Made by a program: the position numbers and the translations under genes. A stretch of 62,644 nucleotides of DNA, counting the filler, from Sphacelaria rigidula (Eukaryota), in assembly GCA_964200075.2 (NCBI GenBank). It is 3 parts of 3 records of this genome, joined end to end, with 100 filler letters (N's around TTAATTAATTAA, not from the genome) between each part and the next. Parts side by side here need not be neighbours in the genome. Positions count along the whole stretch, not along the records: positions 41,871 to 62,644 come from CAXNAA020000494.1; 2 more parts are not named here. One strand, 5' to 3'. Below are positions 43,166 to 61,660 of the stretch, in pieces; position 1 is the first letter of the stretch, and the number at the start of each line of letters is the position of its first letter. The notes below the pieces were generated by a model. It did not search any database. It was not told where the DNA came from and was given only the letters and a program-made list of their open reading frames with translations.

Positions 43166-43493
43166 TCAAGCAAATCCGTACACGTTGTTACCAGGGTTTA
43201 CGGCAGGAATTGTCAAGCTCGACTCGTCACGTACGGAAGCTCCTATCACACTCTCGTCGAGATCCAACACGCCGCAGCTATCCGTTGACCGCTGGCGTCT
43301 GGTGGGCCCTTCAACGAGGGCAATCTCCTGCTCTTTCTGCGCTCGCCAATCTCCGAATATCGCCAGCGCTCCCTCGAATATGACAGTTGCAAGCAAAAGT
43401 ACGTTTGCCAATATCAGCACTGCGGAGAAGGCTTCTTGACTGTCGCTGTTTTCGTCGGACACATCCACTTCGAGTAAAAGGGCCAGGTACATA
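43166..43493 (-). CDS. Pmp-like gene terminal exon (MYLALLL...stop)
   Basis: cttcag|T ATG ... TGA. Confidence 0.85.
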
Positions 43494-46400
43494 CTGAAGG
43501 ATAACGGATGCCGGGGTCGACGGTTGTGGGTCGGGTACGAGGAGCGGTGATCAAAACCATCGGAGCTGAGGGTGAGGAAGTTGAACGCTGAATGAATTGG
43601 CCCAACAACGATCAGTGCCTCAATTAGAACAACGTGGCGCGTCCGCCTTTTCTCCTACTTCATTGCTCCCTTCGACAACGCAAGTTACATCGTGTCGTCA
43701 AGCGACAGGCTTTCGACTGAATATGCCACCTCAGCAGTCATCTGTCGCTTATCGCATGTGGGAGAAGCGAGTGTGGAGCATGGGGGTGGAATAGAACGCC
43801 GTTCGAGCTCTTGCCGTAGGATGGATTTTCCTGTCTACAGCAACGCATACTGCCTGTTCTTGTAATGAGATGTATCAACCCAACCCTGGTTAAACTCCGA
43901 ACCTCAACCTGAGGTACAGTTTGTAGTGTTTTACCTCGCGAAAATGACGCACGAACCGCTGCGGTACAGCCAAATGTCTATCTGTTCCTTGAACGGCGCC
44001 AGGGTCTCCGACACGATTGTGAACACGAAAGCGAGAAGCAGAGTGACCGCAACCTGCGTGCATGGCGATTGATGAATGCCCTGAACACTGTTCGTTTAAA
44101 GTTTGAGTTGGTGCGTGTAGATGCAGTGCTGCAGGACAAATGAATGCAGGAAGTCCGATCTGAAACGCAGCAACTCACACTTCATATGCAGCGTCGCAAA
44201 CCTCGTGGCGAGGGGTTACTTTCTTATGTACCCGTGTCCATTACCTTTGCGAATGAATGCTCACCTGAGCGGCGCTGCCGGGGTATATGAACACCGACAA
44301 ACTCGTGAGGCATATTCGGCGGGTATACTCAACCAGCTCATACCAATAGGCAGAGGGCTTGTACGGCTCCCAAAGGTTTCTGGAAGGCTGAAGATGCGGC
44401 ATGGTGCGACCAGATTCATCCTTCAGGTGTTCGTGATCGCGGATGAGCCACCAAGCGAACATGGCCGGGATGCCCACGGGGTATATCAGGATCATTATCG
44501 CGGCGTATAGTCGGAAGGCGGTGTGCCTGTGCGATCCGCATGTTACACTGTAATCTGCTCGGAGGTAGGAAACTCCATCGTCCAAGCTTCCGTCGCATGA
44601 AAACGTCGAAAATACTGTGTGGGACACCGAGGAATACACGAAAAATAGCAAAAATATCGCGAGCGAGACATGTCGATTCCAAACCATGACCATGGCCCCG
44701 TTGGAAGCGTGGTTTCGGTTCCTGGCAACGGCGTACGTTCCGACCAGCATTCCAAGCAGCAGAATAGGACCGATGGTGGCGAAGATGAGGGTGTCGAAGA
44801 AGTCGACCTCCATGATGCACGAAAACGACAGGATAGCGCCGATGTTCAAGTTGATGAGATCCAAGACGGCGAGGAACTCCCCGTACGCGGCAGAATACTC
44901 CACCCCTGAAATTTCCGCGGACTGTGTAGCGGGTGGGTACAAATGAAGCGGCAGTGACGACACGAACGACCCCAGAGGTAAATAGTGTGAGAGTCAACAG
45001 TGCACTACGTAAGTCGAAGAGGGCACGATATCCAGCTCCGTGCTTGGCTGGTACCCCCTTGTCTGCCATCGCTGGGTATAGGGAAGGAATCTACTTTTCC
45101 CTTACCTGAGTAATTATCTGCCATACCACAAGCACAATTTTGATTGCTGTGACAGGAAGGGATGACGAGATCTGGTCGGAGATCTTCGAGACGATCCCCT
45201 GACATCGCCCACTCCGTCCATCGGAATCATCGCAATCAACTACCTTGGTGAGGTCTTTTACCAATAACGCCAGGAGTATCGTCAGAAACACCACGGCCAC
45301 CACCCAGCCTGCCGCGGTGCGCTTCTGTCCTGCGCAGCTGTGACAACTGTACCGAAAACCTTGCACAAAGTCGTCTTCACAGGCCGCACAATCTGGCAAT
45401 ACAAGTTCATGAGCGGTGAGGGTTGTGGTTAGAATAGAGGTGTAATGCGTGAGAGGACCGCGTGCTTAGAGGACCGCATCGGAATTTGAACATCCCTATG
45501 GTTAGGGTTAGGGTTAGGGTTAGGGTTAGTGTTGGGGTTGAGGTCAGGGGCGTGGTACCTCCAGGGACTGACCCGATTGGTTTTGAAAAACGTCGGTCCT
45601 GAGGTGTTTTGAACTACGGCGCGGTCCTCTAAGCACGCGGTCCTCTCACGCATTATAGAGGGATATGTACAGTCACAAGTGGGCATCAAACACGGCATAC
45701 GGCGGAGGGACACGCACAAGACAGAGGTGAAATCTGCGATATGCTGGGCCCACATACGATATTGTCTGGACAGTCCTCAGGGTGAGATGGGGGTAACGGA
45801 GCCCGCTCTCCGAAGCGGCTCGGACATCAACTCGATTTAAACAAGGACATATTTCTGCGCTCTGGCATCCCTCGAGGATGCCGATAAACCGGCTGGAGCG
45901 GCCGTATTGATATAGTCGAGCAGAACAAAATATTTACAAAAACCGACGAAATATCCCAACACGCTCATCCTTTTGAAATGTTGCAAATAATGCAGACGGT
46001 ACAGTCTACATGCATTGTGCTTGAATCGAATCGTTGCAACTACACAGAAAATAGCGGCGCAACCTGTTGCGGTTCGATGAAACTTCGAACAGTACAGTAC
46101 AGTTACATTGTATCTTTATAATGAGAAGTACCTCTTTTGTGTGGATGGGACCTCGAGTAAGACACTTCTAAGAGTAGGGGTATTGCCATGATTTGTCGAT
46201 ACTCTAGCGAGTATCTAGACCACGTAAGTTGTAGCACATCTTGGTTGGATGTTGCATTTGATCTAAGCTGACGAGGCTACCGCGTCAGTAGCAGAGAGGT
46301 TGAATCGAATGATACGGTTGGAATCTACGTACGTGTAGAGTGTTTCGATTATCCTTCCAGGATTGAGTACGCTTGCAATTGGTGATTATCATCGCTCTTG

Positions 46401-49400
46401 CAATCACTCTCCTTCACTACCACCAGCTCTCTGCTTTAAGAAGAGGCTATGCGTTGTGTTTTTTCTTGACCAGATGAAGAGCCCATCAACCATTTTGACT
46501 CTCTGATTTTATTCTGCTGCAGAAGCAAGTGGTCTGACAACCACCGTGCACTCTCTGCCATACCACTGTCCTCGGGACGGTAGTCGTGTCTTCAGGACAC
46601 TGGTCGGTCTGTTTCGAGAACAGTACCAACAAGCCATGAGCCACATATATTTCCAACATGAACTTCGAATCGCTTCCGAGCCCTTCCCTATCCTCCGTAA
46701 TCACAGTAAACGCGACGTGTGACGGTTCAATACATCGGTAAAGTCCAGAATATCCAGCTACACTTTACCGTGGGGCTGTCAAGTCCTTAAAGATCGACAG
46801 GATCCTGGCGCGCCCTTGTGTTCTACTCGGACAGATAAACCAAACGCTGCAAAAACTTGGTGGATGAGAATCCATCAAACTGTGACTAAAAGCAGGGCGT
46901 GATTTGTTATCCTAATTACCGCTCGATCGCAGTGTGTCGTACCGATTGCACCGTATGTCTCGCACGCACCGCAGAATATAGAGCAACGGCTCACCCTAGA
47001 GAATAGGTGCTCTAAATACGTAAAACCTCTTTCAGCTCAAATCAACTTCCCAAAACGTTTATAGGTGTTCTGCCAATTGTCAACAGCCTCCGCGAGCACT
47101 ATATTCAAATATCCGGCAGTTCGTTGATATTCCGCAGATATCACGCACCACTGTTTCAAGAAAGAGCATACATGACATTCTCCAAGGCTGTTTCTGATGT
47201 GCAAACATGTGAAGATAAATATATGCACTGCATTTGCACGACAGCAAAGAAGGAAATGCGAACACTATGATTCGGCAGATAGTTCGTGCTTTCGGTGCCT
47301 GTGCACACGCCAGATTCAGCATGAGCGTTTACATCAGGCAAATAGCTGGCGTTAAAAACGGTAGTGCGGGCCGTTTCAGGGACGCAAAGTAATCCAGTTC
47401 TATTTTCAGCGGCGGAGCAGAACAAAATCAATTCGAGACGTTGACATACATCTTCCAGTGTACAGCAGCTTTTCTCAAACGTATGCAGGAATTCCGCAGT
47501 TCAGAGTATCTCCCTCGAACTTATGCAAGTGCTCTGCCAGGTTAGGAAATCTTTCTCAAAGGTTGGAGAGACGCTCACCATGTAGAATGTCGCATGTTCT
47601 AGATTGTAAAACGTGGGTTATCGATAGATCAAAACCTGAAACCGCCACAACGTTTTCTATTGCACGTGTGGAATATCTCACATGGGCCCGTGTATCCAAC
47701 GGCACAGTATAAGCTGGACTCTGCCCCACCCATGCAAGCCGCGTGTCGGTGACATTTGACGACGTCGTGGCTATCTCCTGCTGTCCGGTAATAACCAGGC
47801 AGCAATTTCAGTGTCCCAAGCGTTGCCCCGTCGTCAGAAGTGTTGGTGCCTTCCGGGGAAACTTCACAGACGGGGATAGCTGTTGGATTATCGACGACAA
47901 CATCGTCGCCCGTGGTTTCACACTGTTCGTCACTTGAGCATCTCGCGCACACGTACTGGAAACGGCATGCCTCCACACCCTGGTCAGTTGCACGAACAGG
48001 GTGGGGGAGACATTGAGGTTCCAAAATAATCGATTTGATTGTACAGCCACAGATTTTGACCAAGACTTCACGTTTTCAAACCGTTGCTGATCACCCCGGT
48101 GCCTCAGTTGGTAACCTCGAGGCGTTCTGACGTTCGGGTCGTGGGTTCGAATCTCGGTGCGGTCTCGCGATCTGGGATTTCTTCTCACACCATGCCCGAC
48201 AATGGAGAGCGACCATGTCGTGAGTACACGACATTCGAGTTCACGGTCGACGAGGGAAAGGGACCGCTGCCCCTCTCGCGATGAAAAGATAAAAGCATCG
48301 CAGAAGGAGGGTGGAGAACAAAATAAAAAATGCTGGGTTGGCCTCCCTCCTGTGTAACCGCGGCTCATGCGCCCAAACAACCCCGAAAGGTGCAGGCTGG
48401 CGTCCAGAGTAGATGGCATGGGTTGACAACACTAGTCGGAAAGCCTGGAGTACCACACAATACGTGCGAGAAGACGGGATCAACATCTTCTCGGGCAACG
48501 CATGTTTTACTTCGATCACCTCGATGACGTCGTCGTACCCGTATGTTCCGGCGGAGCAGTACAACGAGTTGTCCGTAAAAGTCACGTGTCCCATGTCAAA
48601 AAGCGGTCCGATACTCATGACGGCACAGCCTTCTTCTCCAGCCACGTTAGCCTCAAACACGGTGCCGTTGGTAGCCAATAACACGCCAGTGTGTTCTATC
48701 GCCCCCCCCGATATGGCTGTGGTACGATACATCGCGCAAAGCAGCAGTGGATCACTGTAAGCAAAAATGCAGAAACATCCCAGTTTGCGAGGAATGAGAG
48801 CGAGCTGTTGATGAGCAGACAACTGAGTTATCTTGCGATAGGGAGGAGAAGGTTTGATTGCACGGAGCAAGGGGGCTCACGAGTGCGTCACATCAAACCA
48901 TGTACTCGCTCTGCGTCTTGATGGGGCTGAAAGCGTGGTGGGGCAACGTTAACCCGTTTGGGACCCAACCCCCATCCATCAGGGGTGAGTGCCCATTGTG
49001 AATCGGCATCATTTTGACATGAAAAACGAGTAAAATTAATGCCGATTCACAAATAGACCACCGCTCGCAGTCAAGGGGTCACACCCCCGCTTAGTGGGGG
49101 TCCGGTCCCAGAGAGGTTCACGAGTGCGCTGTGATGACACGATGACTATCAAACTGTTTTTTTTTTACCGACACTACGAAGTGATCCCTTCGTGCAACAA
49201 ACGATTCGAAATGCCCCGTCCCCAGAAGAAGGATTACTCAACACGATGGATGCTGCTCACGATTGCGCTGCCAAAAAAGAGAGATCGTTCCCGGCATCTT
49301 ACCTGCATGGTTGCTTGTGAAGTGCGAGTCAAGTACCTCGTCATACCCGGAAGAGCTGAAGAACCCGCCCCCATTGCTGGCGGAGTTGTTGGTAAACGTG

Positions 49401-52400
49401 CAGCTAGAGGTATGCACGGGCTGTATGCCGATGTCACTATGAAGCACGCCACATGAAAAGAAAGCAATGGCTCCTCCCCACAAAGCGGAGTTGCTCCTGA
49501 AACTAGCATGAGTCACTGAAATATCCGGACACCCAACCCCGTACAACGCTCCACCGGCGCTCGCAACGGCTTCGTTGTGCTCGAATATCGGCGTACCGCT
49601 TATGCTAACTGCACTTGCTCCGCTGAGGGAAATCGCACCTGTTGTCCCGGGTAGCAGGCACGACGTCTTATATGAAATCAGGAAAAGCGCGCATATCAAT
49701 GAAGCGCGCTATGTTAGATAGTGCCCCGCTCTGAATCGAGCCGTTTCGTCTTGGTCGCGATTGTTTGAAGGAATCGCTATTTCGCTGTATGGAGAGCGCA
49801 TCGTAAGCATCTCGGATGATGCAGTATCTGACTTACAACAAAAACGTCGGTGAACAGAAAGTCCTCGCTGATACTTCGAGGCCACAACAGCGTGCACAGC
49901 ATCGCAAAGCTTCGAGCCAGGGCAGCTACGGCACCAAAGGGGAACCGTTTCGAAACGAGATTTTGTTACTGTGTCGTAGTATATTTTTGGCTCTATTCGG
50001 AAAAGAAGACCTTGAACGTGCGCATAAATGGGATAGGTTACCGTTGGCGTCCCCTTTGACAAACCACGTGCATGCATGTACTGGTGCGCATAGCAGGCGT
50101 GTCCAGTTCACAGTCCTCACATCGGTAGTTGACGGGCCAACGACCGAACACTGCCCCCTGCTCCAATGACGACGTTGTCAAGTTCCGAAAATGACAGCGC
50201 ATTGATGGATTGATCTATTCATTCATTGCTGATCCTTAACCGTTGCCCGAGAAATCCACTTGGCGTTACAATATAGACGCACCGAAGGTAAACGAAAACG
50301 TGAACAACGCTCAAGGAAACTCAAAAAAGAGGTAAAAGGTGAAGACAAAGATAACGAAGTAAAATGGACAAGGGCCGCATACCTCCACTGACTGCCGCTG
50401 TGTTGCCCGCAAAGAGTGAGTCGCCACTGATGGTGAGTTTCCCACCCTGTAGGGCAACGGCGCCTAACAACGCGGCAAAAATGCGCCGAGCATGGGATCA
50501 TGGTCAACACAGAACATAACAGACTAACAGGATCAAAAACAGCTACAACATGTACGCACATGCGTGCTTGACTTCACGGGGTTTCTTGGAGGAAGGCTGG
50601 TGTTCGGACGAGATTGCTATTCGTAAGCTGTTTTATGGTGGCAGCAGCAGTGTTATCAAACGTTGACAGAACAATCGGAAGAACTGTCTATAGTGGCTGC
50701 AGAACTGTGTCAAGTCTTGCAGAGTGATGGACACCAGCACCCCGTCCACGAACCATGACACAGCAAGGTAGACAGCCTTCGTCATACGCGCTCACCTCGA
50801 GAGAGTCGTGCGAAGTTTGAGTCCATGCATAGTACCTTCAAAGTAAACACCGAAGGTTATTCATGATGCCAAGGGTGGCGCGAATCGAAAGCAACACACC
50901 AAGGCCTTTTAAGTAGTCACTTGGTGGCCTGGGTGTGGAGAGGGGTTGATATCCAGCAAGAGCCGTGCTTCTGTAAGAGTCTCAAGTTGTAAAATACGAC
51001 TCCCCTCGGCACCGGCTTCTAGCTCATGGAGATAGAGATACCCGAGCGTGCCACTCGATCATCTTCGAAGCTGTACCGTTGAAAGCCAAGGCGGCTGATC
51101 AAGTAGCCTCGTCGGCAGCAACAGAAAAAAGACGTTGTGAGGCGCGAATTCGACCATGCTACTGTAGCACGGCATTTGAGCATGATCAAATTACGGCTTG
51201 AAGTAGTGGACTTTGCGCGACATTGTCCTCAAACTCCCACGGTTGATATATTCAATATTTTCATGCTGACCCTAAAACCGAACCTAGGATAGACCGAGAA
51301 CTCTCGGGCAAAGGGGGTGAATGAAGTACCTCGCAAAATGTGCGTTAGCAGAACTTAAATCAGGGCTGGCCGTACGCGTCGATTCGAGTGGAATCTCGTA
51401 TCGGGCACGCCGTGAGCATTTCGGATCATCAAGCCCCTGAATGGATAAATCGGGAGTCTGACGCCAAAACTCGAGTATGTTTCAACCGTGGGAAAATTGA
51501 CAACAAGTTGGCGTAAGTTCTCCTGGCTTGGAGCTTTCGAGAACGAGAGGCGCTAGAATGATACATGCTGCCCTTAAACAAAAACCAGGGCTGGGAGGGG
51601 GCTGTTCAACGTAGATGGAGGAGTAATGTCGTTTTCTCATTCACAGCCACGACAACGTACGGGCGTGACAATTTTTGAGTCGCAAACAGATTTATAACGC
51701 CAACGTCGCTCAATCGTGCCAAAGGTATGTGGTTCTGATAATTGATCAAGTATCTTGACCGACCAACGTAGGACAACCTTGTCTCGAAGTAATGCCCGGA
51801 GGTACCGTACACGTCACCTCTTACGCCACCCTGCCGGTAGGAGATGTGACACCTGCAGGGGCTCGGTACGATACGAGTGATCGAAGGATGGAAAGATACA
51901 ACGCAGAGAAACGCTCCGTGATTGCAAAACGCGTGAGTTTATGCGCAAGGAGGTGAGCATATGCCCGGCGGCGTCAAGTCTTTCAGGCAGGGTATATTTT
52001 TACTACCAGAGTGTGAGGGAACGTTTCGGGAATACCGTCCGTAGTGGATGTGAACAGAATAAACCTAAAGAAATGTTAGTACACAATGGTTGATACGGAT
52101 GACTACTTGATTTTAGAATTGAGAAAGTTCTGAGGAACATTATGGTTTAGGGCATGTGAGCAGTGGATCCAGCTCGTCCAGAACTAGGCTTTTACTCATT
52201 ATGCTAGTAATGCCATTTTTTTATGCTAGTAATCTCACCAAAATTATGCTCGTAAAATGGAATTTATGCTCGAAAATATGCTCGTATTTCCAAAATATTA
52301 TGCTCGATTAATGCTCGCAACGTGGAATTTATGCTTGATCATGATCGTAATATCCAATAAGGATGCCATTTTCGACCGGATATAGACCCATCGATCACTA

Positions 52401-55400
52401 TTTATTACTACCATTGTTATGTTCGCCACATTAGCTCGATCTCTCAAACCCGTGGTCACAGAGTGCGAGGAGCGTACCACCCATACCCATAATCAAGCTT
52501 CCGCCGAGGAAGGCAAACAAAACACCTACACGAAAAACGGCATACTACTGTAAAGGCATGTTTTATATATACGAAGTACTACCTGCCTACATTAGTTCGA
52601 TTGAATACCGTATTTTCCTGTTGTCGTACACAGTGCATCATTATATATCATCGCGTACTCTCTATACTACATCTTGTGCTACATGCCGCCCCCCAACTGC
52701 CGTTTAGACAAGACATATGGCAGGCAACCTTCTGATTCGAAAATCCATCACAATCTGGCACAATGAGTGTACGTTCTACGCACCTCGTCATCACGCTCAA
52801 AATGACAAGTCACGAAATCACATGATGCTTTCACTCGTCGCCTGTCCCATGTGGGGGAACTCGTGTCCAAGGACAGCGACAAACGGAAAACTGACATTTC
52901 ATTTATGAATGATTGTTAGATTGATTGTCTCGCATGAGCCGATGCCGTTTCTAATCCAGCGGTAGTCGTGAGATGGGTGTGACCTGAGAAACAAGGTGAA
53001 AAAAAGGAAACACATCACACCCTGGACAATAGACGGCATCTATTGCAATAGCAATAGAATCTGCTGCAGTAGATGCTAATATTGTCGTCCGTAATGGCCA
53101 TCGATCGGCAAAATTCTCTTCCTCTTGTCGTTGACAATGTCTATCGATAGACCAGTTTCCCACACTCTTGTCTGGGCAGCAGTCTGCCGTGTCCCTACGC
53201 CGAAATATATTGCGGCCGACCATATGCATCGATCGACAGCTTTCCATATCCATTGATAACGGCAATGGCTATCGATAGACCGCGTGCCGAATCTATTGAT
53301 GACGACAATGACTATTGCCAGATTATATACTAAATCTATTGATGACGGCAATAGCTATTTATAGATTGCGTATAAATCTATGCATGGCGACAATGAGTAT
53401 CGATAGATATTTACCAGAATCTACTGTGGTATACAATGCCTACCGATAGATATTCTCTGTCGTCTATTGCCACATCAACATCGCAACATAATACGTACAG
53501 AGCATATTATACTCCGTTAATGTACGGTCGAGAAGCCGCAGGTGGATATGCAGTGGGTATTTGATGATACTACTTGTTAATATATGACATCACGTTCTAC
53601 AATTTTGGAATGCTTGTATTTAGTAGGAATACGCGATATGTATGGACAAAAGTTTACAACTTTTGTGGTTGGTGTGGTATTGGTACTTATGGTTGTCCCT
53701 CTGATGGACATGAGCGCTTATGGTACTTTTGTGTGTGGTTGAGATGTGCTTGTACCCTGGACAATATACTATGTTTCAGAACATTGGCGCTGCAATAGCC
53801 CCGGAAATTTGACCGTCAATGTTCATTGTCAGTCATAATCAACTGGCATCAATGTCCGTTGATAGCTATTGTAGGCGACAAAAGATTCGGGACACGGGAC
53901 AGAATATATCATCGCTGTGACAATGGAGGGGCCTAGTTGCCTATTGAGACATTTTATCTGCTGCAACAGGATCTGCCACGCTGCCATCAATACATATTGT
54001 TGGTTACAATAGGATATCAACTGCGCCCAGCAATGCCTATTGAGGATCACAACATAATCTGAATCGCGGCTACCAATGTCTACCGCTGGTCACAATGCAA
54101 TCTGAATCACGGCCACGAATATCTAAGGGGTATTGCCGTTGATGTCAAAAGACCACTGCAGTGAGCAATCTATTTTTCAAATCCTATCGTTGGCGTCACT
54201 GGCTATCGATAGGCGCTCCCGAGAACAATCGACTGCTGACGGCAATGTCCACATTGATAGATACCAAACAATGCACTGTTGGCGGCAGAGGCTACCGATA
54301 GACGGCTCACCAAATCTATTGATGACGGTAACAGGTATTGGTAGATGGCTCACCTAATCCATTGATGACGGCAATGACTTTCAATGGATGGCTCACCAAA
54401 CCTGTTGATAACGGCAAAGACTATCGATGGATGGCTCACCAAACCTATTGATGACGGCAATGGCTATCGATATATACATCCCACAATCTATTGCGGTACA
54501 CGATGTCCATCGATGGCGAGGGATCCTTATCTGTTGTAATTGCCATAGGCTATCGATCGACTATTGCAACATAGATTGTCCCTTGCAATGCACATCAATA
54601 TTTGTGTTTCACCATCTATCGTGTTCGATAACACATATCGATAGACTTTCCCCCATGTCTTTTGCTGAAGCAACGGACTATTGTTGTGTCCATTGTCCAG
54701 AGTGTGAAACACACATAGGGGTAGAAATTGGAAAAATACTAGAGTAGACAAGAAGAATGAAGTAGCCAGAGAAACTACAAAACCAAAACACACAAAAAAA
54801 TGGGAAGCTAAGATCTGATGCGTGTTGTGCGCTGTGCACCATGTACTACAGACTACAGACTGTACAGTACATCGTAGGTGTTCATGTTTTGTGTGGTGCG
54901 CTTTCATAAGCAAACGGTTTTCAGACCTGCGATCGATCAGACTGGCAGTTTGAATCAATAGTTCCAGAGCATACATGTAGCTCAGACCCGTGGTCGATGA
55001 TATCAGAGTTTTTCGCCCAAAATATCACAGCAGGCCAGCATTTAGATCCGTAATCCCACCCCTACGGTGAATAATTATGCTCGATTATGCTACTCGCTGA
55101 AACGCCATGCTATTTATGCTACTCGCTGAAACGCTATGCTATTTATGCTACCAAGGTGGAATTATGCCAGAAATTATGCCAGCATAAGAAGTAAAAGCCT
55201 ATCCATAACGTGTTTTGGTCGAAATCGGCGCCTGTGGCGACGATTTGAGGTCTCCCAACGCACACTACGCCGAGGAAATCTCCGCACCCTCCGTGCCCGA
55301 GGGTCTCGTGCGCCTTGGGTCGGGGTTAGGGTTAGGGTTAGGGTTAGGGTTAGGGTTAGGGTTATAGTTAGTTTGTAACATTCCATGATGCTTCCCATCA

Positions 55401-58400
55401 ACCATTGTGTACGAACATTTATTTAGGTCCCCTCCGTGAAGATGCAATATGCAAACAGGCCCATTCGATCATACAGCATGAACCCCTTGATCAACCGCTG
55501 TACAAACTGCGGAACGCCATTCTGAATATTTTTCAAGAAATTCGCGCCCCTCAACGGCTCAATCACCAAAGATTCATATCCAAACGTCGCTTTGAATCCG
55601 AGTCATGTACGCCGTACAGATTACTGTACCTCATCGAGACCAGTCCCTTCAATACCATAACAGTGTCAGGAGATACGCGTGTGTGCGTGTGTGCTTGTGC
55701 CGCCTCCCACCGTGCTTGCGGATGACTGAAGGCATGAGAAACGGGCGGCCGTACTGAGGTTCGTTTGGCACGGCGCTTGTCTTTGTGCTACTTCAGTCAC
55801 CCCACGTCATCAAGAAAGACGACGAATGAACGCCTTGATATTTGACCCCCTTACCCTCACAGCCTGGTCCGGCGAAAACCCGGCGTGCTCCGTCCCGGCT
55901 TTGTAGGGATGCGACGTCAATTGTCTTATGACTATGGCATGCATGATCATGAGTACACCCTTACCCTCACAAGCTGATAGATCGATATGTCGTTCCCATG
56001 GTTTGCTACATGCCTTGGTGCAGCGCCAACGACCCGGACGAAGATGCGGACTAAGTCGCGTGAAGTTGGGTGCGCTCATCGGTCGAAAAACATACGGGAA
56101 CGTTCCCAAAAATGTGCCCTGGCTCTCCTTGATAGAAAAATCAAGCAAGCCAGTCAGAAAGGAAGTACCGGTCGGTTGCTCCAAAGAAAAAACTAGAAGA
56201 CATTCTGCGCGTATGACACACACACTTTCATGTTGCTTACGGCCGCACTGTCTGTCCATCCTTGTTCATTGTTCAAGATTCAAATATACCAATTCAAAAG
56301 ATGGTCCACCCTGGGCATGACTTGTCTTCATAAATGGACAAAGTCAAACTGAAACGCAGAGTACAGTAGAGTACAACGCAGTGCAGTGCTGTACAGTATA
56401 GTGCAGTACAGTGTAGTCTTCTTTCTCCCCCCCCGTTGAGTTCATTCTAGGTATCTCCACGGATCGTATTACGCAGAACCTTTGGAGAGCGTGACCTCTT
56501 CCTACTTCCAGTTCTAAAAGTGAAGCCTTGATCGCAAGGGTGGGTAATTTGGGACTTGTATACTTTTTTCAAGTTAAAATAGTGATAATTCAACAATAAC
56601 CCACGCTGGGCGTGACTGGCCAGCAGATGGACAAGGCCGAAGTCAACGTACAGTACAGACAGAAGTACAACGCAGTACAGTACAGGACAGGACAGTGCAG
56701 GACAGAACAGTGTTGTCTTCTCTCTCTCTCCCGCATTGCAATTTCTGCCCTTTGTCCAAAGGTATCTCAAAGGATCAAACAACACCGAATCCCAGACGAG
56801 CGTCACGTCTTCCTGCCACCAGCTCTGAAGTTGAACCCTTCGACTGCCAGGGTGGGTCATCTGGGCTTTGCATTCATTTTTCAAAGTGAACAGTATGTCA
56901 ATGCAACACATGGCTCACCCTGAAGGTGACACCTGCCCCGTGTTTTTCCGAGAAACAAATACATGGCTCACCCTGAAGGTGACACCTGCCCCGTGTTTTT
57001 CCGAGAAACAAATCTTCGTCGCAGCGGACGGATGATTGAGAGACAGCACGGCGCACAGAGCGGTATCGATAGACTAAACACAACTAGCAAACAGGAGAGC
57101 ATATTGCAGTCATCATGATGTTGTCTGTTCCAGTACACGCCACGCCTTGTACCACAAGTGCCCTGTGCGGCTGGCTACACAAGCGACGTTGTTTTTCTCA
57201 ACGTAGCCTGTGGGAGTGCATTATACATGGACATGCGCACGCATGTAACAAACTTACTCCGACGCAGGCCTCTCCTCCGAGGTTTCCCTCTCGATCCCGC
57301 TTACATGTGCTTACTTTTTATTCGCTTTTGTTGAGGACGGAGGGTTGGCCGGAAGACTGTCTCCAGGGGCCGACTTCGGTACCCTAGATCTCCTCGGCGG
57401 CATGTGCGAGTTGAGCTATATTTTCAGCGTTGTGTACTTCAAATCCACATGCAGAAACCATGGCTCTCCTGTTCATGGAACGTCCCGCGCTCAGTGAAAC
57501 GAACCGGAAAATGGCTGTTTTATTATTGCAAGTTTTGAGGGTACGCTGGAAAAACACCTAAATGGCAAGGTCCAGGCCCCCTCTGTGCCAGAGATCTCGA
57601 GGTGTAGGTAGCGTCCCAAGAAGGAGGGCGTCTCCTCAACACGCGATTTCTCCACCAAAAGGGTGTAGTCCAAAATCACGTGTATGCACATCGAAAAAAG
57701 GGATAAAAACATGACAAGTCTCTGGCCGGAACAATGCCGTCGAACAATCCGGACACTCCTCGGCGGCCAACACGCCCTCGGTTCAGTACATCCAACAGTG
57801 AGGTACGTACTGTGCAGGTCTCACCTCCGTTACCACCGGCAGCATTCCTTTTGAAATTTGCTGCGCCCTCGAGGTCGATAGTACCTGTCGCGTACAACGC
57901 ACCTGTGCACATCCAATCACAACAGGTCGCCGGTCAGAATCGGCATTCGTTGAAGCTGATCAAGTAGTATTATATGCAATTTTGTTTTTTTCCTTGAAGG
58001 AGGAAACCTCACCCAACACTTACCCCGCAAGCGGATTCGTGTGCCGGTTACTCCGAGGCTTGGCTAGACCGCCTCACGGCAGTCATGTGAGGTAGGCGCC
58101 TCGAGCATTTGGAAGCGTTGCTCAAGGTGAGTGTGGGGGTTGAATATCATTAAAGCTCCCCGCCAGCTCAGCACAGTACACGCGCCGCCCTACTCTAGTA
58201 AGCTCCGGCCCTAGATGAGAGTAGTCATGTATGAAAAGCCGATGTATCAAACAAATGTCAAGGCTCCCGACTTGGCACCCAATCTATAACGGCCGNNNNN
58301 NNNNNAGAGCTGCTGCAGCTCTTTCGGGAGAAACGTATGTGTTGTACGGCACAGATCCATGTCAAGCCCATGATAAGTTGAAGCTCCACGCCTCTCTCCA

Positions 58401-59127
58401 TACCCCGGTGTGTAGCACCCTAGCATGGTGTTATTCCCGCATCGGATTTCAAACGCGCCGCTATGTACTCGATACGCTGCACGAGGTATGCTCAACACAC
58501 CAACGCGGGCTTTCTCGCTGACGATAAGATGTGCGAAACAGTCATCCTTTGCATCCACAATGGCGCATTTTCTAGGTCAATCAACCACTTGCTCCGTTGC
58601 CCTATCGTCCACCATCCCTACCAAACTCATGTCCCACGTTCGAAGATTACTTCACCTCCATCATCTCCGGCCTTGTTGCTCACAAACTCAGCCACCCCGT
58701 TGATAGCAAGACTTCCTCCAAGTGAAGAGATGAAACCTATCGTGGGTATGTTACATAGACAGTCGAATGAAATCTCCGTCGCAGCACCGTTGGTGAAAGT
58801 GGAAACCTACTCCTCCACGGAGACTCGTGTGTGCATCACCTACAGTCAATCAGCATTTCTCCGTGGTCGCTGCACCCACTCACCTCCTACGGTTCCCGCG
58901 ATGTTAGACGCCACGTACGTGTAGCCGTCAAAAGTGATGTCGTTGCCAGAGACCAATATCGCACCTACGCTACTCCTCCACGGAGACTCGTGTGTGCATC
59001 ACCTACAGCCAATCAGCATTTCTCCGTGGTCGCTGCACCCACTCACCTCCTACGGTTCCCGCGATGTTAGACGCCACGTACGTGTAGCCGTCAAAAGTGA
59101 TGTCGTTGCCAGAGACCAATATCGCAC
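43166..59127 (-). CDS. Polymorphic-membrane-protein-like (Pmp GGA/FxxN beta-helix repeat) surface protein with Cys-rich stalk and multi-pass TM C-terminus; 5' end outside the window or not found
   Basis: Exons 59047-59127, 58884-58964 (duplicate), 58656-58736, 57825-57902, 50383-50463, 49303-49638, 48520-48716, 47682-47979, 45106-45392, 44265-44921, 43935-44053, 43166-43493 (stop TGA at 43166-43168). All phase-compatible GT-AG. Repeated FxxN..GGA(I/L/V) motifs, LxPGYYR..C..AC.GG..C..GY.GPYC, then hydrophobic helices with YLRADYS, YPVGIP, YKP..YWYELVE.RR. Confidence 0.88.
43935..44053 (-). CDS. Pmp-like gene TM exon (VAVTLLLAFVFTIVSETLAPF...VIFA)
   Basis: acgcag|GTT ... AG|gtaaaa. Confidence 0.85.
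44265..44921 (-). CDS. Pmp-like gene large TM exon
   Basis: acacag|TCC ... CAG|gtgagc; 219 codons. Confidence 0.9.
45106..45392 (-). CDS. Pmp-like gene exon (CAACEDD...KIVLVVWQIITQ)
   Basis: tgccag|AT ... CAG|gtaagg. Confidence 0.88.
45441..45657. mobile_element. MITE with 35-bp perfect TIRs and internal (TTAGGG)n; TGT-type end with 4-bp TSD (Ginger-like?)
   Basis: taatgcgtgagaggaccgcgtgcttagaggaccgc (45443-45477) inverted at 45621-45655; gagg at 45437-45440 and 45658-45661. Confidence 0.78.
47682..47979 (-). CDS. Pmp-like gene Cys-rich stalk exon
   Basis: gaccag|GGT ... T|gtgaga. Confidence 0.88.
48092..48295 (+). mobile_element. tRNA-derived SINE-like element
   Basis: A-box-like tgcctcagttgg (48100) and B-box ggttcgaatc (48144); no complete cloverleaf; A-rich 3' end. 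Confidence 0.5.
48520..48716 (-). CDS. Pmp-like gene exon (ISGGAIEHTG...VFEAN...TFTDNSLYC)
   Basis: ccacag|CC ... GAG|gtgatc. Confidence 0.87.
48953..49116. mobile_element. Small palindromic MITE, piggyBac-like ends
   Basis: TTAA|CCCGTTTGGGACC ... GGTCCCAGAGAGG|TTCA; internal inverted tgtgaatcggcat / atgccgattcaca. Confidence 0.55.
49303..49638 (-). CDS. Pmp-like gene multi-repeat exon (4 FxxN motifs)
   Basis: caacag|GT ... G|gtaaga; phase 1-1. Confidence 0.88.
50383..50463 (-). CDS. Pmp-like single-repeat exon (GAVALQGGKLTISGDSLFAGNTAAVSG)
   Basis: tgttag|GC ... G|gtatgc; 81 nt, phase 1-1. Confidence 0.82.
52185..55201. mobile_element. Non-autonomous hAT-like element in a Pmp-like gene intron
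   Basis: TIR TAGGCTTTTACTCATTATGCT / AGCATAAGAAGTAAAAGCCTA (2 mismatches); TSD tccagaac / tccataac; TTATGCT subterminal repeats at both ends. Confidence 0.82.
53016..54706. mobile_element. Nested CACACCCTGGACAAT-TIR element with 43-bp subterminal repeats
   Basis: cacaccctggacaata (53016) / cattgtccagagtgtg (54691-54706); TSD aaacacat / aaacacac; ggctcacc recurs at 54304, 54347, 54390, 54433. Confidence 0.8.
55323..55370. repeat. Interstitial telomere-like (TTAGGG)n tract
   Basis: ~6-7 perfect GGGTTA units. Confidence 0.9.
56280..57013. repeat. Diverged ~300-bp tandem units plus a perfect 53-bp duplication (56908-57013)
   Basis: tgac..atggacaa..gtatctc..gggtgggt pattern at 56318 and 56612; acatggctcaccctgaagg... 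twice. Confidence 0.7.
57825..57902 (-). CDS. Pmp-like single-repeat exon (GALYATGTIDLEGAANFKRNAAGGNG)
   Basis: gcacag|GT ... G|gtgaga; 78 nt, phase 1-1. Confidence 0.82.
58656..58736 (-). CDS. Pmp-like single-repeat exon (GFISSLGGSLAINGVAEFVSNKAGDDG)
   Basis: cgatag|GT ... G|gtgaag; 81 nt, phase 1-1. Confidence 0.8.
58884..58964 (-). CDS. Duplicated Pmp-like single-repeat exon (GAILVSGNDITFDGYTYVASNIAGTVG)
   Basis: identical to 59047-59127; acceptor gcgtag kept but without a pyrimidine tract. Confidence 0.5.
59047..59127 (-). CDS. Pmp-like single-repeat exon (GAILVSGNDITFDGYTYVASNIAGTVG)
   Basis: gcgtag|GT ... G|gtgagt; 81 nt, phase 1-1. Confidence 0.8.
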
Positions 59128-61144
59128 CTACGCCGCGGACAAGAGACAATCAAACGAGAAAAAAGAACGTGGTGTGCTGTCTGGCATGTTGGAGTTCGAT
59201 GTGGCGATGCAGACATGGATGACAAGGCTACCATTTCTTTTTAGACACTCGTAATGAGTCATGCCTTCTGAAGTGAGTACACGATCTCTCCTCGCTCTCG
59301 CTATACCAACATTTCTGGGGATCTCTGACATGAAACTTCTAGACGTAATTATTTTGGAAGCAGACAACAATGAGTAGACCCACTCCCTTTCTAGCCACAA
59401 GGGGGTAGTGGCAAAACACAGCCTTGGATTCTGCTCGTCATCCTCCAGAATCGATCTTAATGCAATTCTCGCGTGAAGGCAAGACGACTACGGCCTACGC
59501 AGAGCACCGGAATCGACTCTCACGAACTTTCGTGCGCGCCTATGGGTCAGCAAACACTGTGGCGGGGAACAAGAGCTGCGCATGAGGCCCGCGTTTGTCC
59601 AAGAACCGGGTGGGGCGAACCACCACCATCTACTATATTTCCATCTCCGCCTTCTATTCCTCCCCATTCTTCTACTCCCTTTCTCCGAAGTATACGCACT
59701 GTTGACCCCCTTTCCGCCCCTTGGTACTCATCGTCTATGCTACCGTACGGCAGAGCATCGAAGGATCTAAAACATCTCCGCCGCCTCTTTCTGACGCCTG
59801 GAGAAATCCTTCGCACACAAAGCAGACCCCATCGGCGTGTCGAGCTAGCCTCTACCTCACGACACAACAACAGGAAAGGTCGACGATGATCTCTCACGTA
59901 TCATTGTTCTGCTGTAGTTGAAGAGATCCCAACGGAACCCACGGAGTCGCGGCCCAAAAAGAATGTGGCTGAAGAATATATATTTGTGGGAGCGAAGGGC
60001 GTCGCTGCGTGACTGCTCTGGACGAGAGTATGACTTGTTCCTCAGAAAAAAGCTCGAACAGTTTTCGACAATTGCTCATTTTCCCGACCTTTATGTGAGG
60101 GCAGGTTCCTTGTCGAGGTCACGCAAATATCGATTTTGAATTCCTATTTTTTCTGCAAAACACAGTGGTTGTCGGGCAACTACAACGGTTGTCGGGTAAC
60201 ACAGCGGCCCTGGGCACTGTCCAGACAGCAGAGCGGGTCGCGACCCAAAGAGAGCTACCTTCTACCTACGCACGGAAGTATAGTTGTTGTGTCGGACCTA
60301 GGTCTCCTTCCGTTATCGCTCCCATTACGGACATTTTGTGCAACGGGTGGTACCTATACCGTCTGTTTACAGCATCTGGTATTCCCTCCTCCGGCGGTTT
60401 GAGTGGGCAAGACAGGTAGACCCGCGGCACTTTCTGCCCTCGGCCATGGCTCAGGCGGATTGTTATCAAAGGGGATAAACCCTTTTCAATATCCCTTTCG
60501 GAAAGGGGATTGCTCGATGTGCACACAGGCTCAGACAAGGTTCAGAGATGCGCCGGTTCCAGAAATGGACGCTAGTCCAATAGCTCAGTACTGCTGTAGA
60601 CAAGACGCAACAAGGCGACACGACACCTGAACACCAAGCCCCGAGAAACACTCACAGATACCCACCACTTACGCGAATCAGCTGCAGCGCTAGCCGTTGC
60701 TTATCTACACACGGCAGTCTTTGTTTGACGGAAATCTGTCCTGTGTTTGATGAAAGGCGGGCGCATGCGTGTCCAACTACAACCGAAAAGGTGCCGCCAC
60801 TGACCGTTTGTGCGCGTGTGCTGTGCGCACGCGCCTCACACAACTAGTCGTTTCTCATTGAATTCTAAACAGATTTGAGCAAGGTCACGCGCAATCTGCT
60901 CAGCTAATTAGCAGGTACGGCTCGACCTGAGTGTTTTTAATTTGCGGGGGTAGGGTGTTCTGCAAGCCTCTCATTGTGTTGGGTTGTGTGGCAAGCCTTT
61001 GCATGTACCTTTGTCAATGGAACATTCATGTTCTCGTTCAAGGTGGTGGTAATAAAATCCCTTCGTAACATAGATTTTAGGAAGTGTTCTATCAAGTCCT
61101 TAGACCATTTTTTACTGTTTATTTCGGGAAGGGGGCGTATTTTT

Positions 61145-61660
61145 CACACTCTGGACAATGAAGACAACAATATTTCATTGCTTCAATAATTGACGCGAGG
61201 GGAGACCTATACATATATATATATATATATATATCGTCGAACACCATAAATGGTGACACATTTATTGATATGCAAGCCACACTGTATCTTACAAGCCTCG
61301 ATCGATAATCAACCGCAATTGCAGTATATTAAGATCACTGGCCATTGATGGACGTCGTATACCGCAATAAATTCTTGGATTTATCCATCGATAGTTATTG
61401 CCACAAGCAATATATTTGGTGAGCCATCTACCGATAGCCATTGCCGCCAATAATAGACTTGGTGAGCAATCTATCGACGGCCTTTGCCGCCAAGAAGGGG
61501 TTATTGTAGGGAGCAAGCATATATCGATAGCCAATGCCGTCAACAACGGATTATTGCCGTGAGCACTTTATCGATAGCAATGCCGTCAACCACGGATTAT
61601 CGTCGGGAGCCTATCGATACCAATGCCGTCAACAATGGATGATTGTCGTGAGCATCGATT
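61145..61660. mobile_element. Truncated inverted copy of the CACAC-TIR / 43-bp-repeat element
   Basis: cacactctggacaatg is the reverse complement of 54691-54706; followed by ggtgagc..ctatcgatag..gccattgccg repeats. Confidence 0.7.

What the first reader, a model, noticed from the sequence alone, without database searches (positions are those of the whole stretch)
49303..59127. Modular one-repeat-per-exon beta-helix ectodomain: candidate exon-shuffling or alternative-splicing diversification system in an algal surface receptor
Seen: five short exons (81, 81, 81, 78, 81 nt) each encode exactly one Pmp-type coil (GA[ILV]...FxxN.A..G). Every intron falls inside the second Gly codon of the GGA motif (G|GT or G|GC), so all five are symmetric phase 1-1 and can be skipped, duplicated or reordered without a frameshift. 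The 336-nt exon is also 1-1. Established: exon-per-repeat shuffling is described for brown algal ROCO-LRR and NB-ARC-TPR genes, and GGA/FxxN repeats form beta-helical adhesins in Chlamydia Pmps. Inference: the same combinatorial logic operates on an extracellular beta-helix domain tethered to a multi-pass membrane domain, giving variable adhesion or recognition proteins.
Basis: partly seen in the sequence, partly recalled or inferred. Interest (0 to 1): 0.78.

Follow-up and report, generated by a model that had tools for sequence, protein, structure and literature searches.

The report
One-coil-per-exon beta-helix membrane gene
A brown-alga gene for a membrane protein builds part of its outer beta-helix from five tiny exons, each encoding one turn of the helix; this layout grew by exon duplication, and we found no sign that it is used to make many protein variants.

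Summary
On the minus strand, five exons of 81, 81, 81, 78 and 81 nt and one of 336 nt all start and end in phase 1. All have AG/GT splice sites. Each short exon encodes one Pmp-type coil, cut inside the second Gly codon of GGA/GG. Spliced transcript contigs from four runs join Eb-Ec-Ed-Ee-Ef-Eg in genomic order.

The gene spans 43166-59127 and its 5' end lies outside the window. It encodes a PMP beta-helix, a Cys-rich stalk and a multi-pass membrane domain distantly like Pfam PF06011. It belongs to a large brown-algal and ochrophyte family. Its deposited Sphacelaria rigidula model starts inside the 336-nt exon and misses the short exons.

The diversification reading is only partly supported.
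- The first two exons are identical copies within a 163-bp tandem duplication (1 mismatch in 164).
- One Ectocarpales orthologue group shows gaps of exactly one or two coils.
- The other exons are only 46-54% identical to each other.
- No spare exons lie in the introns.
- Seven other groups of close relatives show no coil-sized gaps.
- No exon-skipping junction was listed.

Best reading: slow evolutionary gain and loss of rungs by exon duplication, not a demonstrated isoform generator. This is a new variant of a known kind.

The parts
59047..59127 (-). Exon Ea, 81 nt, phase 1-1, one PMP coil. It is the most 5' exon found in the window.
   Evidence: AG|GT...G|GT read. Phase. Own-coil profile E 2.1e-10. 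No listed RNA junction to Eb.
58807..59133 (-). Tandem duplication of one exon plus intron. Copy A is 58807-58970 and copy B is 58970-59133. CCTAC microhomology lies at the junction.
   Evidence: TRF gives period 163, 2.0 copies, 99% matches. There is 1 mismatch in 164 (58846 T against 59009 C) and the flanks were read. Not checked with DNA reads.
58884..58964 (-). Exon Eb, 81 nt, phase 1-1, identical to Ea.
   Evidence: Junction to Ec in an X1 contig (58734>58882, cut +2).
58656..58736 (-). Exon Ec, 81 nt, phase 1-1, one coil.
   Evidence: Junctions to Eb and Ed in X1.
57825..57902 (-). Exon Ed, 78 nt, phase 1-1, one coil.
   Evidence: Junctions 57899>58653 (X1) and 50462>57824 (X1-X3).
50464..57824 (-). 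7361-nt intron between Ed and Ee, full of repeats.
   Evidence: Skipped in contigs of X1-X3. Repeats. None of the 8 tested reading frames over 100 aa within it matched Pfam. No PMP exon in it.
50383..50463 (-). Exon Ee, 81 nt, phase 1-1, one coil. It starts G|GC.
   Evidence: Junction to Ef in X1-X4 on contigs that match the window exactly.
49303..49638 (-). Exon Ef, 336 nt, phase 1-1, about four coils with no intron between them.
   Evidence: Pfam Chlam_PMP E 5e-6 and Beta_helix 4e-4. Junctions on both sides.
48520..48716 (-). Exon Eg, 197 nt, phase 1 in and 0 out. It holds the last two coils.
   Evidence: The 5' junction is. The 3' border comes from the sequence and from deposited models P0001 and P0309.
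47682..47979 (-). Exon Eh, 298 nt, Cys-rich stalk.
   Evidence: Junction 45392>47682 in X1-X4. 12 Cys in residues 301-430 of the partial model.
45106..45392 (-). Exon Ei, 287 nt: end of the stalk and the first membrane helix.
44265..44921 (-). Exon Ej, 657 nt: core of the multi-pass membrane domain.
   Evidence: phmmer with this frame found 6569 proteins at E<=0.001.
43935..44053 (-). Exon Ek, 119 nt, membrane domain.
43166..43493 (-). Last exon, with the stop codon at 43166-43168.
   Evidence: Aligns to the end of P0001.

Best explanation
This is an expressed gene whose 5' end lies outside the window. It belongs to a large brown-algal and ochrophyte family of surface or luminal membrane proteins. 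Each member has a right-handed beta-helix of Pmp-type coils, a Cys-rich stalk, and a multi-pass helical domain distantly related to Pfam PF06011 (fungal TRP/Flc-like).

In the 5' part of the helix, each rung of 26-27 residues has its own 78/81-nt exon, bounded by phase-1 introns inside the GG codon pair. Because a rung is a self-contained structural unit and the exons are symmetric, tandem duplication or deletion of an exon-plus-intron unit adds or removes one rung without breaking the frame or the fold.

Shown here: the exon anatomy, the splicing in one order, one near-identical exon-plus-intron duplicate, and the beta-helix fold of the paralogue's coils. Inferred: duplication and deletion is how the array arose and how coil number changes over evolutionary time; the helix faces outward; and it binds a ligand or wall polymer while the membrane domain signals or conducts ions. 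On the present evidence the exons are constitutive. The modularity works in evolution, not in isoform production.
For: Anatomy:
- 12 exons and 11 GT-AG introns. The first 7 intron positions are all phase 1.
- At 5 of 5 intron-bearing coil borders the intron sits in the same place in the Gly codon.

Splicing:
- 9 of the 11 introns are removed in contigs of runs X1-X4, in genomic order.
- The Ee-Ef contigs match the window exactly.

Duplication:
- A 163-bp tandem unit equals exon plus intron. It has 1 mismatch in 164, intact splice sites in both copies, and CCTAC microhomology.

Family:
- The membrane frame finds 6569 proteins at E<=0.001.
- 20 of 23 long family members carry Chlam_PMP (18) or Beta_helix only (2).
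- Named members come from Ectocarpus, Pylaiella, Cladosiphon, Nemacystus, Hapterophycus, Scytosiphon, Tribonema and Chrysoparadoxa.
- Family members with a complete N-terminus start with signal-peptide-like leaders and a conserved N-terminal cap.

Fold:
- The AF2 model of paralogue P0001 has mean pLDDT 87.
- Its residues 1-180 match parallel beta-helices: NosD Z 12.1, pectate lyase 1ee6 Z 10.8, phage tail proteins Z about 10.

Coil-sized variation elsewhere:
- In one Ectocarpales orthologue group a 27-residue coil, bounded at G|G, is absent from 3 models (P0153, P0180, P0298) and present in 4 (P0154, P0004, P0178, P0179).
- P0181 lacks 55 residues (two coils) and a further 29.

PF06011 link:
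- 15 of 60 homologues hit PF06011 at E<=0.01, and one (P0120, 30.7 bits) passes the 28.5-bit cut-off.
- P0051 scores 23.9 bits.
Against: - The runs are only guessed to be RNA. That the joined contigs are transcripts is inferred from the clean removal of 9 GT-AG introns.
- The Ea-Eb junction was not listed. The duplication was not checked with DNA reads, and a 10-N gap lies about 500 bp away, so an assembly artefact is possible.
- Apart from Ea and Eb, the short exons are as diverged from each other (46-54% nt) as from the intron-less coils. Their origin by unit duplication cannot be told apart from parallel intron gain at the AG|G sites that GGA-GGN codons create.
- The Ectocarpales coil gaps are differences between gene models. 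They may be annotation skips or true splice variants rather than genomic gain or loss.
- The window's own reading frames give no PF06011 hit.
- No solved structure resembles the membrane domain convincingly.
- The function of the protein is entirely inferred.
Confidence: 0.68

Rival explanations
1. Cassette-exon diversification. The symmetric single-coil exons are skipped, repeated or exchanged by alternative splicing or frequent exon shuffling. One locus and its paralogues would then yield many beta-helix surfaces, as proposed for brown-algal ROCO-LRR genes.
For: - All five exons and Ef are phase 1-1, so any subset keeps the reading frame.
- Brown algae do this with 72-bp phase-2 LRR exons, with up to nine splice variants reported (PMC11378527, passages).
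- Ectocarpus models of one orthologue group differ by exactly one or two coils, including two near-identical models from one species label, P0004 and P0153.
- Both deposited S. rigidula models, P0001 and P0309, omit the short exons.
Against: - Among the 15 junctions listed of 16, in four runs, every GT-AG junction joins neighbouring exons and none skips Ec, Ed or Ee. This is weak evidence, because contigs drop rare variants.
- There are no extra, decayed or antisense PMP exons in 62.6 kb. In Ectocarpus LRR loci such exons are a hallmark (PMC3341825, passage).
- Exons other than Ea and Eb are old and dissimilar.
- 7 of 8 groups of close relatives have no coil-sized gaps.
- The two Cladosiphon t1/t2 isoform pairs differ outside the coils.
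- Only 5 of about 11 coils are separate exons.
Confidence: 0.12
2. Historical accident with no modular role. Introns entered independently at proto-splice sites (exon ...AG | G...) that the conserved GGA-GGN codon pair offers once per coil. Or an ancestral intron-rich array lost its introns in Ef and Eg. On this view the same phase and position follow from the motif, not from unit duplication.
For: - All five intron-bearing borders read GGA G|GY. The four intron-less borders read GGT GGA, GGA GGA, GGG GGC and GGG GGG, so introns sit only where a good AG|G site exists.
- The exons are strongly diverged.
- The bare splice and phase pattern is common by chance: 196 and 170 candidates on the two strands.
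Against: - Codon choice could equally be a consequence of splicing constraints rather than the cause of intron position.
- One intron-less border (GGA GGA) has an AG|G site but no intron.
- The Ea/Eb duplicate shows that unit duplication does create new in-frame exons at this locus.
- Coil-sized gaps at G|G borders in Ectocarpales suggest the same intron position in a distant order.
Confidence: 0.15
3. The Ea/Eb duplicate is an assembly artefact, for example two haplotypes or read ends laid in tandem. The gene would then have four single-coil exons in the window.
For: - The copies differ at one base only.
- The scaffold has N gaps, one of them at 58296-58305.
- No RNA junction between Ea and Eb was listed.
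Against: - The duplication does not abut the gap.
- Its junction shows 5-bp microhomology, as slippage duplications do.
- Both copies keep complete splice sites and frame.
Confidence: 0.2

Closest known systems
Brown-algal ROCO-LRR and NB-ARC-TPR genes with one repeat per exon (Zambounis et al. 2012, PMC3341825; Teng et al. 2024, PMC11378527)
   Same: - Same lineage.
- One structural repeat per short exon, with symmetric intron phase and nearly equal exon lengths.
- The repeat domain is a presumed ligand-binding solenoid.
   Different: - The exons here are 78/81 nt and phase 1. ROCO-LRR exons are 72 bp and phase 2.
- The repeat is a beta-helix rung on a membrane protein's outer domain, not a cytosolic LRR or TPR.
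- Only five such exons are seen, with one recent duplicate.
- No spare exons lie in the introns and no splice variants were seen.
[quoted passage not shown] Its supplementary table is an .xls file that could not be read.
Chlamydial polymorphic membrane proteins (Pmp autotransporters; Pfam PF02415 repeat)
   Same: - GGA(I/L/V)-type and FxxN-type motifs recur about every 26-29 residues.
- Each repeat forms one coil of a parallel beta-helix (PMC11166332 abstract and passages, PMC10715098 abstract).
- Pfam Chlam_PMP scores above its cut-off on Ef.
   Different: - This is a eukaryotic, intron-containing gene.
- There is no autotransporter barrel. A Cys-rich stalk and a helical multi-pass domain follow the helix instead.
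- Several coils have degenerate motifs. Ea has Y-V-A-S-N where FxxN is expected.
Proteins annotated 'polymorphic outer membrane protein' in Ectocarpus and other ochrophytes (for example P0298, P0181, P0305, P0074)
   Same: - Same family and same architecture: signal peptide, N-terminal cap, PMP coils, Cys-rich stalk, conserved multi-pass domain.
   Different: - Those are database names only.
- No paper on the family or its exon structure turned up in three searches.
Fungal PF06011 'TRP' proteins (Aspergillus TrpR, yeast and Cryptococcus Flc1)
   Same: - The membrane domain's relatives give sub-threshold PF06011 hits to the C-terminal half of that profile. One passes the cut-off.
- An Atlas structural neighbour's aligned part is named PF06011.
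- Those fungal proteins are linked to calcium homeostasis (abstracts only).
   Different: - The window's own frames do not hit PF06011.
- The ectodomain is unrelated.
- Channel activity is untested here and debated even for the fungal proteins.
Phase 1-1 module exons of animal extracellular proteins (Patthy's rule). This is recalled; it is cited as 'Patthy 1999' inside PMC3341825.
   Same: Symmetric phase-1 exons encode self-contained extracellular structural units.
   Different: These units are rungs of one continuous solenoid, not independently folding domains. There is no evidence that they moved between genes.

Membership tests
Pfam PF02415 Chlam_PMP repeat / parallel beta-helix | Profile match above the curated cut-off | tested here: met
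   The Ef frame scores 26.7 bits against a 20.6-bit cut-off. The four short-exon frames tested alone give no hit. Paralogue P0001 scores 28.5 bits.
Pfam PF02415 Chlam_PMP repeat / parallel beta-helix | GGA(I/L/V)...FxxN motif pair recurring about every 25-30 residues | tested here: met
   About 11 units of 26-35 residues. The motif is degenerate in some, for example Ea.
Pfam PF02415 Chlam_PMP repeat / parallel beta-helix | Right-handed parallel beta-helix fold, one coil per repeat | tested here: met
   Tested on the paralogue's coils only (P0001 residues 1-180): Z 12.1 to 7o0y, rmsd 2.4, 124 aligned. The five single-exon coils were not modelled, because a spliced product could not be submitted.
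Chlamydial Pmp autotransporter proteins | C-terminal autotransporter beta-barrel in a bacterial outer-membrane protein | tested here: not met
   The C-terminal part is helical and multi-pass (helices 261-654 of the P0001 model). The gene has 11 spliceosomal introns.
Brown-algal exon-shuffled repeat receptors (ROCO-LRR / NB-ARC-TPR type) | Each repeat on its own exon, symmetric phase, equal length | tested here: met
   True for 5 of about 11 coils: 81/81/81/78/81 nt, phase 1-1.
Brown-algal exon-shuffled repeat receptors (ROCO-LRR / NB-ARC-TPR type) | Many near-identical exons, plus spare or decayed exons in introns or on the opposite strand | tested here: not met
   Only Ea and Eb are alike. 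The other pairs are 46-54% identical. There are no further PMP units in the window on either strand.
Brown-algal exon-shuffled repeat receptors (ROCO-LRR / NB-ARC-TPR type) | Several splice variants with different repeat sets | tested here: inconclusive
   Only neighbour-to-neighbour GT-AG junctions appear among the 15 listed of 16. Contigs cannot show rare isoforms. Coil-sized differences exist between Ectocarpus gene models.
Brown-algal exon-shuffled repeat receptors (ROCO-LRR / NB-ARC-TPR type) | Diversifying selection on the ligand-facing residues of the repeats | not tested
   No coding DNA of orthologues for Ea-Ee was available. The only measure is rough: 24 nonsynonymous and 11 synonymous codon changes against the paralogue over the stalk and membrane exons, from 40 of 78 differences shown.
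Pfam PF06011 TRP (fungal Flc/TrpR-like) membrane domain | Profile match above the 28.5-bit cut-off | tested here: inconclusive
   Window frames give no hit. Among homologues, 15 of 60 hit at E<=0.01, and only P0120 (30.7 bits) is above the cut-off. P0120 matches the window's membrane frame at E 6e-37.
Brown-algal/ochrophyte PMP-helix + Cys-rich stalk + multi-pass family | Collinear homology over helix, stalk and membrane domain | tested here: met
   627 of 699 residues identical to P0001, and 219 of 219 to P0309. 20 of 23 long membrane-domain homologues carry PMP or Beta_helix.
Brown-algal/ochrophyte PMP-helix + Cys-rich stalk + multi-pass family | N-terminal signal peptide and conserved cap domain | tested here: not met
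   Not found in 59128-62644 by tblastn with 35 N-termini (best E 0.033, elsewhere in the window) or with whole proteins. It most likely lies beyond the window's end.

The most novel reading that the evidence does not exclude
Brown algae have a third class of cassette-exon proteins, and the first extracellular one. In this class the rungs of a PMP beta-helix are individually encoded by symmetric phase-1 exons. Rungs are gained, lost and perhaps skipped, so that helix length and surface vary among paralogues, alleles and isoforms of a large surface-protein family. That would run against the 2012 conclusion that exon shuffling in brown algae is confined to LRR and TPR genes.
Probability: 0.15. 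Interest if true: 0.6.

Novelty: new variant of a known kind. Interest (0 to 1): 0.36.

Why it matters
The locus gives a clean example of exon borders coinciding with single rungs of a beta-solenoid, with one duplication apparently caught soon after it happened. It shows how such helices can lengthen one rung at a time without breaking frame or fold.

It extends the one-repeat-per-exon layout of brown algae from cytosolic LRR and TPR genes to the outer domain of a large, unstudied family of membrane proteins. It also shows that the deposited gene models of this family can miss the short exons. That matters for annotation and for any count of repeat number.

If isoform or allelic variation in rung content were later found, the family would become a candidate for surface recognition in an independently multicellular lineage.

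Tried and rejected
- Own genome: none is held, so paralogues and genome-wide exon statistics could not be examined.
- Sequencing runs: no RNA holder is listed on record. X1-X4 are 'RNA?' by guess.
- Stretches without contig cover, for example 50860-51514 and most of 59375-60029, are not interpreted.
- Non-canonical junctions at repeats (48159>48241, 48269>48337, 49059>55860, 53014>54740, 55959>57265) were taken as repeat joins, not splicing.
- 5' end: not found by tblastn of 176 family proteins (E<=1e-3), by the own-coil profile, or by 35 N-terminal caps (E<=50). Pfam gave nothing for 16 frames in the introns and upstream.
- Membrane-domain fold:
  - Foldseek against the PDB gave nothing at E<=0.001, for the 700-residue model or the membrane-only model of P0007 (mean pLDDT 73.6).
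  - VIA-align wide gave a best Z of 9.7 (a designed cage) and 9.2 (Flycatcher1), within the noise for helical bundles.
  - A PDB sequence-profile search found only beta-helix proteins.
  - No claim is made that the fold is new.
- Protein searches with the Ef frame found 2 longer proteins and 1 of near length. No deposited model contains Ea-Ee.
- Cluster look-ups for coil-sized gaps: most clusters were singletons.
- Literature: 'brown alga' with 'polymorphic membrane protein' gave 0 papers. 'Polymorphic outer membrane protein' with 'Ectocarpus' gave 1 paper, an expression study. Pmp, beta-helix, exon and intron phase together gave nothing relevant.
- Supplementary table 2 of PMC3341825 is an .xls file and unreadable here. 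It may list non-LRR/TPR candidates that bear on novelty.
- Rfam and tRNA scan on the whole window: nothing.
- Earlier findings of this scan: nothing, by place, words or sequence.
- Rejected idea: the helix is a polysaccharide lyase or epimerase because such enzymes top the fold list. This is a fold-level match only, at 8-13% identity, and no catalytic motif was examined.

Full report
**What is there.** The finding lies on the minus strand of a eukaryotic, intron-rich window. Reading the sequence and phasing it by script gives these exons:
- Ea 59047-59127 (81 nt)
- Eb 58884-58964 (81 nt)
- Ec 58656-58736 (81 nt)
- Ed 57825-57902 (78 nt)
- Ee 50383-50463 (81 nt)
- Ef 49303-49638 (336 nt)

Each has an AG acceptor and a GT donor, and each starts and ends in phase 1. 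At all five coil borders that carry an intron, the intron follows the first base of the second Gly codon (GGA G|GT four times, GGA G|GC once). Each short exon therefore encodes one unit G-[A/F]-[I/L/V]...[F/Y]xxN...G-G of 26-27 residues.

Two points need qualifying. First, the intron 3' of Ef is phase 1 but splits an Ala codon three residues before the next GGA. Second, only 5 of about 11 coils have their own exon. Ef carries about four coils and the next exon, Eg, about two, with no intron between them.

**Is it more than chance?** The bare pattern 'AG, 78 or 81 nt open in phase 1, GT' occurs 196 times on the minus strand and 170 on the plus. With split Gly codons at both ends it occurs 12 and 11 times. 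The splice and phase pattern alone is not evidence.

The evidence lies elsewhere. The five exons are collinear and carry the coil motif. A profile of the gene's own coils finds them (E 2e-10 to 8e-9) and nothing else in 62.6 kb on either strand (next best E 0.54); this test is partly circular. Pfam Chlam_PMP passes its cut-off on Ef (26.7 against 20.6 bits). It is silent on the four short-exon frames tested alone.

**Transcripts.** No holder is on record as RNA. However, four runs guessed to be RNA (X1-X4) hold 0.17-0.29 of the sampled words of window 43100-50500. Their contigs, laid on 43000-62644, carry junctions whose skipped parts end CT..AC on the plus strand. That is GT..AG on the minus strand.
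- Eb-Ec and Ec-Ed in X1, on one contig depth (16.9)
- Ed-Ee in X1-X3, skipping 7361 nt
- Ee-Ef in X1-X4, on contigs with 0 differences from the window
- Ef-Eg in X1, X2 and X4
- four further junctions downstream

In all, 9 of the 11 introns in my model are removed in listed junctions. The Ea-Eb and Eg-Eh junctions are not among the 15 shown; 1 more was not shown. Eg-Eh is backed by the deposited protein models.

That these contigs are transcripts is my inference from the clean removal of canonical introns. Low-depth (2-5) exact contigs also run through introns, which fits pre-mRNA or some DNA in the runs. Every listed GT-AG junction joins neighbouring exons and none skips Ec, Ed or Ee. Contigs drop rare variants, so this is weak evidence against alternative splicing.

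**The whole gene.** The spliced model has 12 exons and 11 GT-AG introns. It gives 873 codons and a stop at 43166-43168. It reads, in order:
- about 11 PMP coils
- a Cys-rich stalk (12 Cys in 130 residues)
- a hydrophobic multi-pass domain

The 5' end is missing. Neither a signal peptide nor the conserved N-terminal cap of the family is found upstream in 59128-62644. That stretch looks like more repeat-rich intron, so further exons probably lie beyond the window.

The closest proteins carry the source name Sphacelaria rigidula. P0309 is a partial model that matches this gene at 219 of 219 aligned residues, with one 8-residue gap. P0001 (700 aa) is 627/699 identical. Both models begin inside Ef, so the five short exons are absent from the deposited annotation.

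The more abundant 95-99%-identical contigs in X1-X4 belong to the P0001 gene. All 24 nonsynonymous differences among the 40 listed (of 78) give the P0001 residue. So a close paralogue, or a divergent allele, with the same intron positions is expressed alongside this gene. Over the stalk and membrane exons, 24 codon changes are nonsynonymous and 11 synonymous. That is a rough and possibly biased sample, but it does not suggest strong constraint. Identity to P0001 is 119/139 in the helix, 106/119 in the stalk and 356/390 in the membrane part.

**Family and fold.** The membrane-domain frame finds 6569 proteins at E<=0.001. Of 23 long ones scanned, 18 carry Chlam_PMP and 2 more carry Beta_helix. 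Named members come from Ectocarpus species, Pylaiella, Cladosiphon, Nemacystus, Hapterophycus, Scytosiphon, Tribonema and Chrysoparadoxa. Some are annotated 'polymorphic outer membrane protein'. Members with a complete N-terminus show a signal-like leader, a cap, 10-20 coils, the stalk and the membrane domain.

An AF2 model of P0001 (mean pLDDT 87) has a beta-helix at residues 1-180 that matches NosD (Z 12.1, rmsd 2.4, 124 aligned), pectate lyases and phage tail proteins. A helical bundle follows it.

The membrane domain has no convincing solved relative. Its homologues give sub-threshold PF06011 hits (15 of 60, one above the cut-off). The ESM Atlas shows the same membrane module joined to other ectodomains in other eukaryotes: Ephrin-receptor-like Cys-rich domains and LRR/DUF7630. 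It also appears in clusters carrying TIR or START domains. Fungal PF06011 proteins are linked to calcium homeostasis (abstracts). A sensor or channel role is therefore a reasonable guess, and nothing more.

**Evidence for modular evolution.** Ea and Eb are identical. They lie in a tandem duplication of 163 bp (copy A 58807-58970, copy B 58970-59133) with 1 mismatch in 164 and CCTAC microhomology at the junction. The duplication copied the last 6 nt of an intron, the exon and 76 nt of the next intron, so both copies keep their splice sites and frame. This is what exon duplication by slippage should look like. It was not verified with DNA reads, and an assembly artefact remains possible.

In one Ectocarpales orthologue group, a 27-residue coil bounded at G|G is absent from three models (P0153, P0180, P0298) and present in four (P0154, P0004, P0178, P0179). 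P0181 lacks 55 residues (two coils) and another 29. These gaps fit 81-nt phase 1-1 exons at the same position in a distant order. Because they are gene models, skipping, annotation error and real loss cannot be told apart.

**Evidence against a dynamic system.**
- Apart from Ea and Eb, the short exons are 46-54% identical at nucleotide level. That is no closer than they are to the intron-less coils.
- No spare, decayed or antisense PMP exons exist in the introns. In Ectocarpus LRR loci such exons are a hallmark (PMC3341825, passage).
- Seven other groups of close relatives show no coil-sized gaps: three Ectocarpus clusters, E. fasciculatus twice, a 15-member unnamed cluster, and two Cladosiphon isoform pairs counted as one group type.
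- All intron-bearing borders use GGA G|GY, while the intron-less ones use other Gly codons. This fits either splicing constraint or intron gain at proto-splice sites.

**Comparison and novelty.** The nearest known system is the brown-algal ROCO-LRR and NB-ARC-TPR exon-per-repeat architecture. It has 72-bp phase-2 exons, shuffling and up to nine splice variants (PMC11378527, passages; PMC3341825, section 17).

The present locus shares the layout. It differs in repeat type, phase, location (the outer domain of a membrane protein) and, so far, in dynamics. [quoted passage not shown] Its supplementary list could not be read. Three literature searches found nothing on PMP-repeat genes or their exon structure in brown algae. 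The protein is not a chlamydial-type Pmp, because it lacks the autotransporter barrel.

I rate it a new variant of a known kind and moderately interesting. It is a neat structural-unit-equals-exon case with one apparently fresh duplication. A diversification mechanism is possible but unshown.

Noticed in passing
window 55861-55960 (inside the Ed-Ee intron): A stretch of about 100 nt has a summed contig depth of about 75,000-84,000 in all four runs, with many different loose ends on both sides. This marks a very abundant dispersed element embedded in many transcripts. It is flanked by a 22-nt direct repeat at 55845-55866 and 55955-55976. There is one copy in the window, no Rfam or tRNA match, and no unusual fold (z -0.65 and 0.12).
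   Followed up: partly
window 55323-55364 and about 45490-45549: Telomere-like repeats sit inside two introns of the gene. (GGGTTA)7 was found by TRF. A second low-complexity run was flagged as a skipped repeat, and its reading frames read TLTLTL/NPNPNP like the first.
   Followed up: no
window 53290-53408 and 54292-54471: 43-bp tandem repeat arrays lie in the 7.4-kb intron. Reading frames upstream of the gene at about 61290-61640 look similar, so the same repeat family probably flanks Ea. The similarity was not checked.
   Followed up: no
window 48100-48240 (Eg-Eh intron): Contig depth is about 2900-3500 at 48181 in three runs (table 4). This is another highly repeated or highly expressed short element inside an intron.
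   Followed up: no
window 43166-49638 compared with protein P0001: A paralogue or divergent allele about 96% identical at nucleotide level, with identical intron positions, appears in the same runs at higher contig depth (41-59 against 10-17). All 24 of 24 nonsynonymous differences reproduce P0001. There are 24 nonsynonymous to 11 synonymous codon changes among the 40 of 78 differences shown.
   Followed up: partly
window 49303-59127 compared with proteins P0001 and P0309: Both deposited gene models of this gene pair start inside the 336-nt exon and lack all five short exons. P0309 also lacks 8 residues inside Eg. Short coil exons seem to be missed by automatic annotation.
   Followed up: yes
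proteins P0153, P0180, P0298, P0181 compared with P0154, P0004, P0178, P0179 (Ectocarpales): Orthologous gene models differ by exactly one 27-residue coil, or by two coils (55 residues), at G|G borders.
   Followed up: partly
window 519-929 and 15969-16472, minus strand: Two reading frames match the start and the end of Pfam Ufd2P_core (ubiquitin elongating factor; E 3.8e-11 and 1.4e-16). A long, intron-rich UFD2/UBE4-like gene occupies roughly the first 16 kb of the window.
   Followed up: no
ESM Atlas neighbours of P0001 residues 255-660: The same multi-pass membrane module occurs in other eukaryotes behind different outer domains (Ephrin-receptor-like Cys-rich, LRR/DUF7630) and in clusters carrying TIR_2 or START domains. 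One such cluster lists giant viruses as its commonest taxon.
   Followed up: no
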